Shown here: one piece after another, positions 28,777 through 33,982 of the stretch | Layout of the letters: each line of letters opens with the position of its first letter | Numbering within the stretch: the first letter of the stretch is position 1 | DNA from: Promethearchaeota archaeon | Lineage (GTDB): Archaea; Asgardarchaeota; Lokiarchaeia; Sigyniarchaeales; SOKP01 | NCBI GenBank assembly: GCA_019057795.1 | Contig: JAHLWS010000049.1 | Span: 1-64,000, forward strand | Reading direction: 5' to 3' | DNA: 64,000 nt | Program-made: the position numbers and the translations under genes | Notes under the pieces: generated by a model | Told to the model about the DNA's origin: nothing | Databases searched by the model: none | Seen by the model: the letters and a program-made list of their open reading frames with translations, nothing else

Positions 28777-29331
28777 TCACGAATACCTTTGTTTGTCTCG
28801 ATATTCTTTAACGGAAACTTCTCGTGCCTCTAACCTATTATTTTCTACTAAAGTTTCTTCGATAGCTTTAATTTCATCTCTAGTCTTAATATCGCTTTTT
28901 TTAAGTTTCTCAAGAATTTCTTTTTCTCCTAATCCCTTAGTATAATACACCCTAAATTTTTCAACGGTCTCCTCGTTGTAAAAAACATAGTGTCTATTCG
29001 TAAAAATAATCAACCAATTCTTCTTGCTTTGCTTTTTCGATAAATTGTGCATCTTTTCTTGGATTTGGGGTAAGGAACGTTTAAGCTTTCTGGCAACCAT
29101 TTTATCTTCGATTGAGCTATAATCCGATAAAAATTTTTTGAGCTTTTTATTAAAAAATAGGGTTGGAATGTAAGAAAGCGCAAATAGCACCATAGTTATA
29201 ACAGTCATTATTATTGCTGCTAGTTGATAAAATATAAAAACGATAAGAATTGCAATAATAAGAAATATAAACCATTTTCTTCCAATTGTCTTTAGTATTT
29301 TTACGAATTTGCTAGGCATACAAATCTTCAA
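28777..29331 (-). CDS. Hypothetical membrane-anchored protein
   Basis: Two N-terminal hydrophobic helices followed by a basic soluble domain. Confidence 0.6.
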   Translation of the reverse strand: MKICMPSKFVKILKTIGRKWFIFLIIAILIVFIFYQLAAIIMTVITMVLFALSYIPTLFFNKKLKKFLSDYSSIEDKMVARKLKRSLPQIQEKMHNLSKKQSKKNWLIIFTNRHYVFYNEETVEKFRVYYTKGLGEKEILEKLKKSDIKTRDEIKAIEETLVENNRLEAREVSVKEYRDKQRYS

Positions 29332-29402
29332 ATTACGGTTAATTTGTTCTTATTATATAATTTATGGTTTAAAAAATCCGTATAACCATATAAATTACCG
29401 CT

Positions 29403-29553
29403 TTCTGGGTTCCCGAACCATCTGTTCGGCAGATTGTTTTTCGGATGTGACCAGGTTTTATCCTGTAATACCATGACCGTAGCCGAAGCCACAGTTTGCA
29501 AGTTCCCATAGACTTTCTACTACAGTACTATTTGCAACGCAAAACAGTTTAAC
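29403..29553 (-). rRNA. rrf: 5S rRNA, circularly permuted gene (predicted 151-nt product with a loop C expansion)
   Basis: The minus strand gives the canonical 3' half first (GTTAAACTGTTTTGCGTTGCAAATAGTACTGTAG...CTATGGGAACTTGCAAACTGTGGC), then TTCG, then the canonical 5' half (GCTACGGTCATGGTATTACAGGATAAAACCTGGTCACATCCGAA...GAACCCAGAA). Helices I-V and the loop E AGUA/GAA motif can be paired by hand. Confidence 0.85.
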
Positions 29554-29748
29554 TTCCAGGCGGAAAATTTTTTTTTTAAATTTATATGGTAAAAGATACC
29601 ATGAACAACCATCTCATAAGTTTGGCTATATTATTGTAAAATGCTTTACTTATATGGTTGCAAGTAATTAGTATAGAATAGACTAGTAATTAAACTTTTT
29701 CATAATGAATCGTTAAATTTAAAAGGAATAGCAAATGACGCTTTAATT

Positions 29749-32410: not shown

Positions 32411-33982
32411 ATGACTAACGATTTAGAAGAGGTTTCAGGAATAGGGAAAGCAACAGCAGACAGGATGAGAGCGTCTGGCATTGATACAGTTGAAAAATTA
32501 GCTTCCACGACTCTAGACAAATTAACTAAGTTAAAAATCAAGGGAGTAGGTAAATCCACAGCTTTAAAGTATATTAAGAACGCTCAAAAATTGATTAATG
32601 AAAAACCAAGTGATACTGAACCTCAATTAAAGAAAGAAGACACTCCACCCAAGCCAGAAAAACATCAAAAACATGAACCAACTAAAAAACAAAAGCCAGC
32701 AAAAGGTAGGAATCTTAAAGAATTAATAAAAAAACAAGCAGAGTGTAATATTGGGCTAGTGGGCCATGTAGACCACGGTAAAACCACACTAGTTAAGACC
32801 TTAACGGGCGATTGGACGGATAGACATTCTGAGGAAATAGAGAGAGGCATTTCGATAAAATTAGGATATTCAAATGCGACTATTCTATACTGCCCTGAAT
32901 GCGATGAATATCTTACGTATCATATGGCAGAAGCAGCTAGAAAAAAAGGTCAACCAAGATTTGTTTGCCCCAACTGTAAAAAAAATTTAGAGTTTAGAAG
33001 AAATATTTCCTTCGTCGATGCTCCTGGCCATGAAATCTTAATGGGTACTATGTTAAGTGGAGCTTTTTTAATGAATGGCGCGTGTTTACTAATTGCCGCT
33101 GATGAAGTTTGTCCCCAACCACAAACGAGAGAACATTTAGCTGCATTGAATATTGCGGGAATCGAGAACATTATTATCATCCAAAATAAAATTGATGCTG
33201 TGTCAAAAGAGCAAGCGTACGAAAATTATAAGCAAATAAAAACATTTGTAAAAGATTCCATTGCTGAAAACGCTCCAATTATACCTGTTTCCGCAGTTTT
33301 TAATGTTAACATCAATCTGATAGTTCGAGCGTTCGAAGAAATAATACCTTCTCCTAAAATTCGTGAAGATGAAGAATTTCAATTCTTAGTTGCTAGATCT
33401 TTTGACATAAATCGCCCAGGCACAGAAATCAGTAAACTACGTGGTGGAGTTATAGGGGGATCCGTATTAAAAGGTAAAATTAAGGTTGGTGAAGAAATCG
33501 AAATTAGGCCGGGTCTTCGAGTTAAGAACGAATTTATACCAATTAGAACTGAAATAGTAAGTATTAGCCAAGGAAATAATCTATTAGAAGAAGCTAATCT
33601 CGGTGGTTTAATTGGATTAGGGACTAAATTAGACCCCGCCTTGACAAGGGGAGACTCTCTGATAGGGAATTTGGTTGGTAAAACTAACACATTACCCGAA
33701 ATTGTTTCACAAGTAGAGTTAAAAGTCAAGCTTTTAGAAAGAGTAATTGGTTCTGAAATGCAAATAAGGGTTCAACAACTTAAACATAACGAAAAGCTCT
33801 TAATAGTTGTTGGTACTGAAAAAACAGCAGGAACTGTTACAAAAATTTTAAAAAACTCTTATATTCTCAATTTAAATCCACCTATTTGCCCTCCTGAGAA
33901 TTCTATATTTGCGATTTCTAGAATTATTAATAGACGGTATCGATTAATAGGATATGGTAGACATTTTAATCAAAATCAGTGA
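32411..33982 (+). CDS. eif2g: Translation initiation factor aIF-2 gamma with an N-terminal helix-hairpin-helix extension
   Basis: NIGLVGHVDHGKTT, EEIERGISIKLGY, DAPGHE, QPQTREH, NKID, RSFDINRPG, RYRLIGYG; extra N-terminal HhH motifs. Confidence 0.95.
   Translation: MTNDLEEVSGIGKATADRMRASGIDTVEKLASTTLDKLTKLKIKGVGKSTALKYIKNAQKLINEKPSDTEPQLKKEDTPPKPEKHQKHEPTKKQKPAKGRNLKELIKKQAECNIGLVGHVDHGKTTLVKTLTGDWTDRHSEEIERGISIKLGYSNATILYCPECDEYLTYHMAEAARKKGQPRFVCPNCKKNLEFRRNISFVDAPGHEILMGTMLSGAFLMNGACLLIAADEVCPQPQTREHLAALNIAGIENIIIIQNKIDAVSKEQAYENYKQIKTFVKDSIAENAPIIPVSAVFNVNINLIVRAFEEIIPSPKIREDEEFQFLVARSFDINRPGTEISKLRGGVIGGSVLKGKIKVGEEIEIRPGLRVKNEFIPIRTEIVSISQGNNLLEEANLGGLIGLGTKLDPALTRGDSLIGNLVGKTNTLPEIVSQVELKVKLLERVIGSEMQIRVQQLKHNEKLLIVVGTEKTAGTVTKILKNSYILNLNPPICPPENSIFAISRIINRRYRLIGYGRHFNQNQ

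What the first reader, a model, noticed from the sequence alone, without database searches (positions are those of the whole stretch)
29398..29563. Circularly permuted 5S rRNA gene whose ends form a bulge-helix-bulge-like splice motif, predicting a covalently circular 5S rRNA
Seen (minus strand): the 3' half of 5S precedes the 5' half. Helix I (CTGTGGC/GCTACGG) is capped by a C(UUCG)G tetraloop at 29487-29484, where the free ends normally are. The flanks pair as CCGC-CTGG-AAG (29563-29553) with CCAG-AAA-GCGG (29408-29398): an outer stem, a 4-bp central helix and 3-nt bulges, with the inner side relaxed. Known: archaeal splicing endonuclease cuts after the second bulge nucleotide and RtcB ligates; this route circularises permuted SRP RNA in Thermoproteus. 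Applying that rule joins ...GAACCCAGAA to GUUAAAC..., which rebuilds canonical helix III with its AA bulge against CCUGG. Inference: the mature 5S is a 151-nt circle, or is reopened at UUCG. Standard rRNA finders would miss or truncate such a gene. I know of no description of a permuted 5S gene.
Basis: partly seen in the sequence, partly recalled or inferred. Interest (0 to 1): 0.95.

Follow-up and report, generated by a model that had tools for sequence, protein, structure and literature searches.

The report
Permuted 5S rRNA gene, circular product
In a whole family of Loki-type Asgard archaea the only 5S ribosomal RNA gene has its two halves in swapped order. Environmental RNA data show that the tRNA-splicing machinery cuts and rejoins the transcript, and removes a 30-base intron, to give a 121-base closed ring, probably the first known circular 5S rRNA.

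Summary
On the minus strand, 29553-29403 holds a 5S rRNA gene in swapped order: 3' half, then helix I closed by C(UUCG)G, then the 5' half. A 12-bp processing stem and a bulge-helix-bulge (BHB) motif flank it.

One correction: the 30-nt insert in loop C (29439-29410) is itself a BHB intron. The product is therefore a 121-nt circle, not 151 nt.

RNA contigs from two independent metatranscriptome studies carry the predicted sequence ...CAUCCGAA|CCCAGAA|GUUAAAC.... One is a 151-nt contig, which equals the 121-nt circle plus 30 nt of end overlap.

Rfam finds no 5S in this genome. None of the 131 genomes sampled from its family has an archaeal 5S above the Rfam cut-off. About 60 loci from at least five genera carry the permuted gene. 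It has three different breakpoints, and each restores the same 5S.

Covariation supports every helix. EndA (two genes) and RtcB are present.

Still open: whether the ring is the mature ribosomal form (my estimate about 70%) or is reopened at the tetraloop.

I found no paper describing this. The closest analogue is the permuted, circular SRP RNA of Thermoproteus. First readers of this scan noted the same layout in two other genomes.

The parts
29624..29651 (-). Putative archaeal promoter (BRE/TATA-like: AAGUAAAGCAUUUUACAAUAAUAUAGCC), about 35-60 nt upstream of the processing stem.
   Evidence: The block is conserved upstream of the gene in relatives of several genera. It is inferred from conservation and position only, and no transcription start site was mapped.
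29579..29590 (-). 5' strand of the long processing stem (ACCAUAUAAAUU).
   Evidence: It pairs with 29396-29385 in the cofold and in the minimum-energy fold. It covaries with the partner strand across genera: UUAACCACA/UGUGGUUAA in most relatives.
29560..29563 (-). Outer BHB helix, leader strand (CCGC).
   Evidence: It pairs with GCGG at 29401-29398. The three outer pairs are 100% paired, and all three covary on alignment A2. Variants seen: ACG/CGU, GCG/CGC, AAAGCG/CGCUUU, UAGCG/CGCUA.
29556..29559 (-). Central 4-bp BHB helix, leader strand (CUGG).
   Evidence: It pairs with CCAG at 29408-29405. All 47 loci parsed have 4/4 bp here. CUGG/CCAG changes together with CCGG/CCGG.
29553..29555 (-). 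5' bulge AAG. The cut lies between 29554 and 29553, so G29553 is the first retained base.
   Evidence: The cut position follows the BHB rule. The product sequence is confirmed by RNA contigs. The register is fixed independently by type-B genes, where the two bulges differ (AAC and UCU) and the join reproduces the type-A internal sequence exactly.
29488..29553 (-). The 3' part of 5S: the last two pairs of helix III (GU), the helix II 3' strand, helix V, loop E, helix IV, loop D, and the helix I 3' strand.
   Evidence: It aligns to positions of about 50 to 119 of canonical 5S of the sister family. Helices II, IV, V and I covary.
29484..29487 (-). UUCG tetraloop that closes helix I where 5S normally has its free ends.
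   Evidence: The loop is always 4 nt in 45 distinct cores: UUCG 24, UUUG 9, UUAG 6, UACG 3, CUCG 2, UAUG 1. The helix below it is 7/7 bp, and the three loop-proximal pairs covary. RNA contigs run through the loop.
29440..29483 (-). The 5' part of 5S: helix I 5' strand, loop A, helix II 5' strand, loop B, helix III 5' strand, and loop C up to ...CAUCCGAA.
   Evidence: Shown by the alignment to canonical 5S. RNA contigs end this block at 29440 and continue with CCCAGAA-GUUAAAC.
29410..29439 (-). 30-nt BHB intron in loop C. Layout: central helix UCCG (29445-29442) with CGGG (29415-29412), bulges AA|A and AA|C, and a 23-nt inner hairpin.
   Evidence: RNA contigs of two studies join across it. The intron is 30 nt in every lineage that has it, with 4/4 central pairs and an inner hairpin that changes by compensating substitutions. 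Close relatives differ in whether they have it (L039 versus L040).
29403..29409 (-). 7-nt micro-exon CCCAGAA: the end of loop C plus the helix III 3' strand. Its CCAG also forms the central helix of the terminal BHB.
   Evidence: In the RNA contigs it lies between 29440 and 29553. The tool reports it as 'TGGG between' plus the shared GAA.
29402..29404 (-). 3' bulge AAA. The cut lies between 29403 and 29402.
   Evidence: The cut position follows the BHB rule and agrees with the RNA product. A 3-nt bulge appears here in the unconstrained folds.
29398..29401 (-). Outer BHB helix, trailer strand (GCGG).
   Evidence: See the leader strand.
29385..29396 (-). 3' strand of the processing stem (AAUUUAUAUGGU).
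29371..29376 (-). Run of six T, a possible archaeal terminator.
   Evidence: Read from the sequence. This is an inference only.

Best explanation
This is the only 5S rRNA gene of a Promethearchaeota (Lokiarchaeia-type Asgard) archaeon, and it is circularly permuted.

Proposed pathway:
1. The gene is transcribed from its own promoter as a precursor.
2. The leader and trailer of the precursor pair into a 12-bp stem that ends in a bulge-helix-bulge motif.
3. The splicing endonuclease (two EndA-family genes) cuts after the second base of each 3-nt bulge.
4. RtcB joins the two new ends. This rebuilds the loop C / helix III sequence CCGAA-CCCAGAA-GUUAAAC.
5. The same enzymes remove a 30-nt BHB intron that lies 7 nt upstream of the 3' cut.

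The product is a covalently closed 121-nt RNA. It has the normal 5S three-way junction, and helix I is capped by a UUCG tetraloop instead of free ends. I think this ring, not a reopened linear form, is what enters the ribosome.

Shown: the gene order, the BHB, the conservation and covariation, the absence of any other 5S gene, the presence of the enzyme genes, and the exact ligated and spliced sequence in environmental RNA.

Inferred: which enzymes act, the order of the two splicing events, the promoter, and that the ring is the mature ribosomal form.
For: Gene and structure
- The sequence is as described.
- Reordered sequences align end to end with canonical 5S of the sister family at 48-64% identity. 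Canonical sequences are 53-79% identical to one another. Loop A, loop C (CCGAAC), GUUAAAC, AGUACUG and UGGGAAC are conserved.
- 28-30 of the 35 canonical consensus pairs are kept.
- The circular fold of the 121-nt product gives helices I-V.
- The precursor structure is 97% paired, 19 of 35 pairs show double changes, and 0 of 500 shuffles reach this. The mature helix III is also supported.

BHB
- The central helix is 4/4 bp, the bulges are 3 nt, and the outer helix covaries, in the 47 loci parsed.
- It is found without constraints by cofold and by the minimum-energy fold.

Independent confirmation of the join
- Three breakpoints each restore the same 5S: type A after CCCRGAA, type B after ACCCGGUC, and type C in loop B of another family.

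RNA
- A joint from 29556 back to 29440, with TGGG between, is seen in runs of two studies. One contig has depth 5.8 and 69 nt on the shorter side. Two contigs have depth 63.6. Seven loose ends spell the junction.
- One contig is 151 nt. That equals the 121-nt circle plus a 30-nt repeat at the ends, and the contig passes through both the tetraloop and the junction.

No alternative gene
- RF00001 finds nothing at E <= 10 in this 100%-complete genome.
- Family f1 has no archaeal 5S above the cut-off in 131 genomes.
- The two exceptions lie beside bacterial 23S rRNA.
- The joined sequence is absent as DNA from 38 of 42 genomes of the genus. The other four are type B, where that stretch is colinear.
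- In metagenome contigs the joined form has 0 hits and the native form has 13.

Enzymes
- Two EndA genes and one RtcB gene are present.

For a ring as the end product
- The helix I cap is always exactly 4 nt and mostly UNCG-like, and the closing pairs covary.
- E. coli ribosomes tolerate 5S whose native ends are joined by a 4-nt connector (PMC7283268).
- The permuted SRP RNA of Thermoproteus works as a circle (PMC4731332).
Against: - Only assembled contigs of public RNA runs could be laid, not reads. They cannot show RNA ends or local depth. A cyclic contig could be stitched from a circular intermediate plus a linear mature form.
- There is no RNase R, northern or ribosome-bound evidence.
- The inner side of the terminal BHB has no helix (a relaxed motif), so cleavage by EndA is inferred, not shown.
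- The GAA shared by leader and trailer leaves the cut register ambiguous by sequence in this gene. It is fixed only by comparison with type-B genes.
- RF00001 could not be scored on the reordered sequence.
- In 16S and 23S maturation and in permuted tRNA genes, circles are usually intermediates that are reopened.
Confidence: 0.72

Rival explanations
1. The gene and the BHB ligation are as described, but the 121-nt ring is only an intermediate. An unknown nuclease opens it in or beside the UUCG loop, and ribosomes carry a conventional linear 5S. This is how permuted tRNA genes and circular pre-16S and pre-23S RNAs are handled.
For: - There is precedent. Permuted tRNA transcripts are circularised and then cut (cited in PMC4267664 and PMC10085705). 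Circular pre-16S and pre-23S are usually re-linearised (PMC12918454).
- Contigs cannot exclude a linear main species.
- Family f3 has a 5-nt rather than a 4-nt cap.
Against: - The cap is exactly 4 nt in 45 of 45 distinct cores, is mostly UUCG or UACG, and its closing pairs covary. This suggests that a folded tetraloop is selected, not a disposable linker.
- RNA contigs of two studies run through the loop, and one closes on itself at circle length + 30.
- No conserved extra sequence is available for RNase P/Z-type trimming.
Confidence: 0.2
2. The transcript is cut at the BHB but not ligated. The ribosome would use a linear, permuted 5S with its ends in helix III / loop C, in the manner of the permuted mitochondrial 5S of brown algae.
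For: Permuted linear 5S molecules exist in brown-algal mitochondria (PMC4267664).
Against: - RNA contigs of two studies contain the covalent join CCCAGAA-GUUAAAC.
- Three different breakpoints restore one and the same sequence. That makes sense only if the ends are rejoined.
- A 7-nt micro-exon could not stay bound without ligation.
Confidence: 0.03
3. The locus is a silent relic or an assembly artefact. A normal 5S gene, or a head-to-tail DNA array of 121-nt units, supplies the ribosomes and explains the RNA contigs.
For: - rRNA genes are often missing from metagenome-assembled genomes.
- This genome has 7.5% estimated contamination.
- Sister-family genomes do carry tandem 5S arrays, though with spacers of about 250 nt.
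Against: - No archaeal colinear 5S was found in 131 genomes of the family, several of them 100% complete or in a single contig.
- The layout is conserved with compensatory changes in about 60 independent assemblies.
- The joined sequence has 0 hits in metagenome contigs, against 13 for the native form.
- The RNA contig is identical to the window's own allele over all 147 bases laid.
Confidence: 0.02

Closest known systems
Permuted SRP RNA gene of Thermoproteus tenax (Plagens et al. 2015, PMC4731332)
   Same: It is an essential, universal non-coding RNA gene whose 3' part comes before its 5' part. Its termini lie beside a functionally important loop. The splicing endonuclease processes the site, and the ends are ligated into a circle that is functional as a circle. 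The canonical gene is absent from the genome.
   Different: The RNA is different: here it is a ribosomal RNA. Here the permutation holds across a whole family (at least 13 genera sampled) and extends into a second family. There are three breakpoints. Up to two additional 30-nt BHB introns sit in the same gene. The evidence here comes from environmental RNA contigs only, with no biochemistry.
Permuted tRNA genes (Cyanidioschyzon merolae, Soma et al. 2007; reviewed in PMC3978253, as cited in PMC4267664)
   Same: The 3' half comes before the 5' half, a BHB forms between leader and trailer, and a circular RNA is produced by the tRNA-splicing machinery.
   Different: In tRNAs the sequence that links the natural ends is removed, so the mature RNA is linear. 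Here the link is a fixed 4-nt tetraloop under structural selection. That argues for a closed mature form.
BHB excision and circularisation of archaeal pre-16S and pre-23S rRNA, and circular 23S in ribosomes (PMC12918454; PMC7758197)
   Same: A long processing stem bears a BHB, EndA cuts, ligation gives a circle, and in some lineages the circle is retained in the ribosome.
   Different: In those cases the genes are colinear and the junction lies outside, or at the rim of, the functional sequence. Here the junction lies inside helix III / loop C and is needed to build the molecule. The paper states that 5S is not known to take this route.
'Permuted' mitochondrial 5S rRNA of brown algae (Valach et al. 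2014, PMC4267664)
   Same: It is a 5S rRNA in which helix I is closed by a hairpin and the ends lie elsewhere.
   Different: That case is organellar. It involves no BHB, no ligation and no swap of gene halves. Its ends sit at the three-way junction, and the final RNA is linear and permuted.
Low-level circular 5S species in Sulfolobus and Halobacterium (Danan et al. 2012, PMC3326292)
   Same: Circular RNA of 5S size in archaea.
   Different: Those species come from normal colinear genes, are minor, and were not validated by RT-PCR. The authors considered them possible degradation or processing by-products. They are not required to form the molecule.

Membership tests
5S rRNA (Rfam RF00001) | Three-way junction with helices I-V. 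| tested here: met
   - The consensus fold of the reordered sequences gives helices I, II, III, V and IV. 28-30 of the 35 canonical consensus pairs are kept.
- The circular fold of the 121-nt product gives the same structure.
- The mature structure is 95.8% paired, 16 pairs show double changes, and 0 of 500 shuffles reach this.
5S rRNA (Rfam RF00001) | Conserved sequence blocks: loop A, loop C CCGAAC, loop E AGUA/GAA. | tested here: met
   Full-length alignment to five canonical 5S sequences of the sister family, at 48-64% identity with the conserved blocks kept.
5S rRNA (Rfam RF00001) | Covariance-model score above the gathering cut-off (38 bits). | tested here: not met
   - Native order: no hit at E <= 10 in the window region or in the genome.
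- Relatives score 18-33 bits.
- This is expected for a swapped order. The reordered sequence could not be given to the tool.
5S rRNA (Rfam RF00001) | Colinear gene with free 5' and 3' ends at helix I. | tested here: not met
   The halves are swapped and helix I is closed by 4 nt. This is the feature that makes it a variant.
5S rRNA (Rfam RF00001) | Expressed, and the only candidate 5S in the genome. | tested here: met
   - RNA contigs in three studies.
- A single copy in the genome.
- No other 5S in the genome.
Bulge-helix-bulge substrates of the archaeal splicing endonuclease | Two 3-nt bulges on opposite strands, separated by a 4-bp helix, each bulge on the 3' side of the helix on its own strand. 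| tested here: met
   This holds for the terminal BHB and for the loop-C intron BHB.
Bulge-helix-bulge substrates of the archaeal splicing endonuclease | Flanking helices on both sides (strict hBHBh'). | tested here: inconclusive
   - Terminal BHB: the outer helix is 1-6 bp (4 bp here) and is backed by a 12-bp stem, but there is no inner helix.
- Intron BHB: the inner hairpin is present, and the outer helix is shared with the terminal motif or with helix III.
- This is a relaxed motif, of the kind that (alpha-beta)2 or epsilon2 enzymes accept (PMC5829648 abstract).
Bulge-helix-bulge substrates of the archaeal splicing endonuclease | The product is joined at the second/third bulge nucleotide. 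| tested here: met
   - The RNA contigs carry the predicted product.
- The register is fixed by the type-B genes.
Bulge-helix-bulge substrates of the archaeal splicing endonuclease | Endonuclease and RtcB ligase are encoded, and cleavage is demonstrated. | not testable with these tools
   The genes are present: two EndA-domain open reading frames of about 200 aa, and RtcB. An enzymatic cleavage test needs the bench.
Permuted RNA genes matured by circularisation (tRNA, SRP RNA) | The 3' part comes before the 5' part, the termini form a BHB, and the junction is present in RNA. | tested here: met
Permuted RNA genes matured by circularisation (tRNA, SRP RNA) | Fate of the circle: retained (SRP type) or reopened (tRNA type). 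| tested here: inconclusive
   The cyclic contig and the conserved tetraloop favour retention. Contigs cannot show RNA ends.

The most novel reading that the evidence does not exclude
Ribosomes of an entire family of Asgard archaea contain a covalently closed, end-less 5S rRNA. It can be made only by tRNA-type splicing of a permuted gene that also carries introns. That would make the splicing endonuclease and RtcB indispensable for building the ribosome itself. The breakpoint has moved at least three times, which implies that the circular RNA, or its processing logic, has been stable long enough for the gene to be re-permuted.
Probability: 0.65. Interest if true: 0.93.

Novelty: new variant of a known kind. 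Interest (0 to 1): 0.88.

Why it matters
- 5S rRNA is universal, and recent literature states it to be the one archaeal rRNA that does not pass through a circular form.
- A gene that cannot yield a 5S without cut-and-rejoin, fixed across a whole Asgard family, extends BHB-dependent RNA rearrangement from tRNA and SRP RNA to the ribosome.
- It would add a natural circular rRNA.
- It shows BHB introns inside 5S.
- It ties the unusually heavy use of mini-introns in these genomes to an essential function.
- On the practical side, it explains why rRNA finders report no 5S in these genomes, which affects genome-quality standards. It also gives a ready pattern for annotating the gene.
- The closest cultured relatives appear to have normal 5S genes. 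This may be why it has not been seen at the bench.

Tried and rejected
- Rfam scan of the window and of the 600-nt region, at gathering threshold and at E <= 10. There was no 5S match in native order. The weak hits nearby (snoR10, SAM-II/V, histone stem-loop; E 0.7-8) are chance.
I replaced it with alignment, consensus folding and pair counts.
- MAFFT alignment A1, which included the genes with the loop-C intron, misplaced the intron gap near the 3' end. I did not use it for counts. A2, without those genes, was used instead.
- Run X1 (share of words 0.56) gave nothing when laid. This is no evidence either way.
- Runs X2 and X5 gave no cover over the leader, trailer and intron. As the tool warns, absence of cover in contigs is not evidence. 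I use only the contigs that bridge.
- Run X4 gave one 151-nt contig that is colinear with the DNA over 29414-29560, at depth 2.1. It is either precursor RNA or DNA carry-over, and I cannot tell which.
- The two RF00001 hits above the cut-off in family f1 (G015, G084) were checked as possible normal 5S genes. Both lie beside bacterial 23S rRNA, so they are contaminants.
- Four of the 31 pattern hits in genome contigs were chance matches in coding DNA of unrelated taxa (L037, L046, L058, L064).
- One arm insert (L055) gave no convincing canonical BHB.
- I did not build a covariance model for the permuted family. Pattern and family searches already gave the distribution.
- Complex prediction, structure prediction and the protein searches were not used, because they have no bearing on the question.

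Full report
**What is in the sequence.** Read on the minus strand, the region runs as follows.
- A conserved A/T-rich promoter-like block (about 29651-29624).
- The 5' strand of a 12-bp stem (29590-29579).
- The leader CCGC-CUGG-AAG (29563-29553).
- The 3' part of a 5S rRNA (to 29488).
- A UUCG loop (29487-29484).
- The 5' part of 5S, up to ...CACAUCCGAA (29440).
- A 30-nt insert (29439-29410).
- CCCAGAA (29409-29403).
- The trailer A-GCGG (29402-29398).
- The 3' strand of the stem (29396-29385).
- A run of T (29376-29371).

The 217-nt precursor folds at -56.4 kcal/mol (z = -3.1; 0 of 200 shuffles fold as well). Its minimum-energy structure shows the stem, the 4-bp outer helix, the 4-bp central helix with a 3-nt bulge, the capped helix I and a hairpin in the insert.

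**It is a 5S rRNA, and the only one.**
- Rfam finds nothing in the window.
- Rfam finds no 5S at E <= 10 in the whole 4.95-Mb, 100%-complete genome.
- The locus is single copy.
- I cut at the predicted sites, removed the insert and reopened the ring at the tetraloop in silico. The resulting sequences align end to end with canonical 5S genes of the sister family, at 48-64% identity. Canonical sequences are 53-79% identical to each other. All hallmark blocks are kept.
- 28-30 of the 35 canonical consensus pairs are kept.
- The 121-nt circle folds into the 5S three-way junction.

**Conservation and covariation.**
- Homologues with the same swapped order occur in 16 of 18 sampled genomes of the genus.
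- They occur in 27 species-level genomes whose records are titled Promethearchaeota or Promethearchaeia (Loki_b31, ABR02-04, Hel_238_bin105, CSMAG and DZ bins).
- They occur in four further genera of the family.
- They occur in at least 11 of 13 metagenome contigs.
- In the 47 loci parsed, the central BHB helix is 4/4 bp, both bulges are 3 nt and the outer helix is 1-6 bp. In the 45 distinct cores, helix I is 7/7 bp and is closed by exactly 4 nt.
- On 19 type-A sequences (alignment A2), the precursor structure is 97% paired. 19 of 35 pairs change on both sides, and 0 of 500 shuffles reach this. Slid controls are 31-42% paired. The BHB helices are 100% paired and covary: CUGG/CCAG with CCGG/CCGG, and the outer helix GC with AU.
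- The mature helix III is also supported.

**Three breakpoints, one product.**
- Most genes break after CCCRGAA (type A, as here).
- Others break 16 nt earlier in the circle, after ACCCGGUC (type B). Their leader is GCG-CYGG-AA|C-CAUCC and their trailer is CCGG-UC|N-CGC. These include four genomes of this genus and most of genus g10. Joining them reproduces the internal type-A sequence letter for letter. Because the two bulges differ in type B, this fixes the cut after the second bulge base.
- A genome of another family (G020) breaks in loop B (CCGA-AA|A and UCGG-AA|A) and again gives a 121-nt circle.

This pattern makes sense only if the ends are rejoined.

**Introns.**
- The loop-C insert is a canonical BHB intron: UCCG-AA|A, a 23-nt hairpin, then CGGG-AA|C.
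- It is 30 nt in every lineage that has it. The hairpin changes by compensating substitutions. Close relatives differ in whether they have it.
- Relatives also carry 30-nt BHB introns at two sites in the helix IV/V arm. Removing them gives sequences identical to those of intron-less relatives.
- Earlier notes of this scan report many mini-introns of 28-33 nt in protein-coding genes of this genome. I did not test those.

**RNA evidence.** Twelve public runs from six studies hold part of the locus. Ten are on record as RNA (cold-seep and sediment metatranscriptomes). I laid four of them on 29330-29630.
- Two studies show a joint that goes from 29556 back to 29440, with TGGG between.
- In the sense of the RNA this reads ...CAUCCGAA (29440) - CCCAGAA (the micro-exon) - GUUAAAC (29553...). 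So the intron is removed and the permuted ends are ligated.
- In X2 the contig is identical to the window over all 147 bases laid.
- The X2 contig is 151 nt long, and its first 30 nt equal its last 30 nt (29488-29517).
- That is the length expected for a closed 121-nt cycle in a 31-mer assembly graph. The word size of 31 for these contigs is my knowledge of Logan, not a tool output. The contig passes through both the tetraloop and the junction.
- In X5, two bridging contigs and seven loose ends spell the same junction.
- X4 has one low-depth contig that is colinear with the DNA. It is either precursor or DNA carry-over.

**Is the joined form present as DNA?**
- It is absent from 38 of 42 genomes of the genus. 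The other four are type B, where that stretch is colinear.
- In JGI metagenome contigs the joined form has 0 hits and the native form has 13.
- Across the order, family f1 (131 genomes, 13 genera) has only sub-threshold RF00001 hits of 25-33 bits. Every one of these that I inspected is a permuted gene.
- The two hits above the cut-off lie beside bacterial 23S rRNA on contaminant contigs.
- Family f2 has normal colinear 5S genes, some in tandem arrays, in 12 of 14 genomes. It includes closed genomes of 4.4 and 6.0 Mb. From their sizes these may be the cultured Loki strains, but that is my inference.

**Machinery and context.**
- The genome has two EndA-domain genes of about 200 aa and one RtcB gene. 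Two EndA genes suggest a heteromeric enzyme of the broad-specificity kind (PMC5829648).
- The 5S gene stands alone. A C25-peptidase gene lies upstream and a 184-aa open reading frame with no Pfam match lies downstream. It is not linked to 16S or 23S.

**Mechanism.** Topologically the 5S is the 'intron' of its own precursor. Leader and trailer pair, EndA releases the middle, and RtcB closes it, as happens to every excised BHB intron and to pre-16S and pre-23S. The new point is that the closure lies inside helix III / loop C and creates the functional sequence. The natural ends of the molecule are replaced by a tetraloop.

I put about 95% on this part.

**Is the ring the mature form?** I put about 70% on this.

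In favour:
- The invariant 4-nt cap, mostly UNCG, with covarying closing pairs.
- The cyclic RNA contig.
- The precedent of circular SRP RNA (PMC4731332) and of circular 23S in ribosomes (PMC12918454).
- The finding that E. coli ribosomes accept 5S with its ends joined by 4 nt (PMC7283268).

Against:
- Contigs cannot show RNA ends.
- In other systems circles are often intermediates.

**Origin (inference).** A tandem 5S array, as seen in the sister family, combined with a BHB intron in loop C or helix III would give this layout once the outer half-genes are lost. The intron halves would become the leader and trailer. Types A and B share the same leader (GCG-CYGG-AA) and the same flanks. The breakpoint therefore moved within one locus, between the two CCGG strands of helix III.

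**Novelty.**
- Full-text searches found no paper on a permuted or circular archaeal 5S: 'permuted 5S' with archaea; 'circular 5S' with bulge-helix-bulge; 'circular 5S rRNA'; Lokiarchaeota with 5S rRNA and BHB.
- A 2023 list of natural RNA permutations names only the mitochondrial 5S case (PMC10085705).
- A 2026 paper says that 16S and 23S 'but not 5S' are circularised.
- Danan et al. saw minor, unvalidated 5S circles from normal genes.
- First readers of this scan noted the same layout in two other genomes, without follow-up.

I class this as a new variant of a known kind (BHB-matured permuted RNA genes).

Noticed in passing
L028 (G013), L050, L062, L051/L054, L061, L038, L042, L085/L087: the helix IV/V arm of their 5S genes: 30-nt inserts at two different sites in the helix IV/V arm are canonical BHB introns (for example CUGC-AA|A ... 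GCAG-AA|U). Removing them gives sequences identical to those of intron-less relatives. One gene (L038) carries both an arm intron and the loop-C intron, in addition to the permutation.
   Followed up: partly
L007 (G020, another family of the same order), about locus 1400-1620, minus strand: A third permutation breakpoint lies in loop B (CCGA-AA|A and UCGG-AA|A), with a 15-bp GC-rich processing stem and a 5-nt cap on helix I. It again yields a 121-nt circle. RF00001 sees only positions 20-59 (37.6 bits).
   Followed up: partly
Leaders of most relatives (for example L017, about 25 nt upstream of the BHB): A small conserved hairpin, GUAGC-NNNNN-GCUAC, sits in the leader between the processing stem and the BHB. 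It resembles helix I (CUGUAGC-UUCG-GCUACGG). The window's own leader has an A-run there instead. Its function is unknown; it may be a relic of the duplication that made the permutation.
   Followed up: no
L006 (G015:C263) and L071 (G084:C68): The bacterial 23S-5S operon fragments binned into two Asgard genomes are contaminant contigs. The one in L071 has a group I intron in its 23S (Rfam RF00028, 65 bits).
   Followed up: partly
G026:C1:1399892-1400758; G061:C66:1456-1934; G063:C1:86508-87876; G065:C1:856658-857695: Sister-family genomes carry colinear 5S genes in short head-to-tail arrays, with a period of about 365-375 nt in G026 and G061. This is a plausible starting point for a permutation by tandem duplication.
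   Followed up: no
window 29267-29343, minus strand (downstream of the 5S trailer): This stretch is conserved among the closest relatives (…AAUUAACCGUAAUUUGAAGAUUUG…). It gives weak hits to a C/D-box snoRNA model (21.6 bits, E 2.6) and to SAM-II/V. These are probably chance, and the stretch overlaps the start of a 184-aa open reading frame with no Pfam match.
   Followed up: no
window 1-64000: The 64 kb contain no tRNA gene and no Rfam family above threshold. GC content is about 29-37%.
   Followed up: no
window 32411-33982, plus strand: An aIF2-gamma-like GTPase (GTP_EFTU plus eIF2_C) carries an N-terminal helix-hairpin-helix domain (HHH_5, residues 4-53). That is an unusual fusion for this factor.
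   Followed up: no
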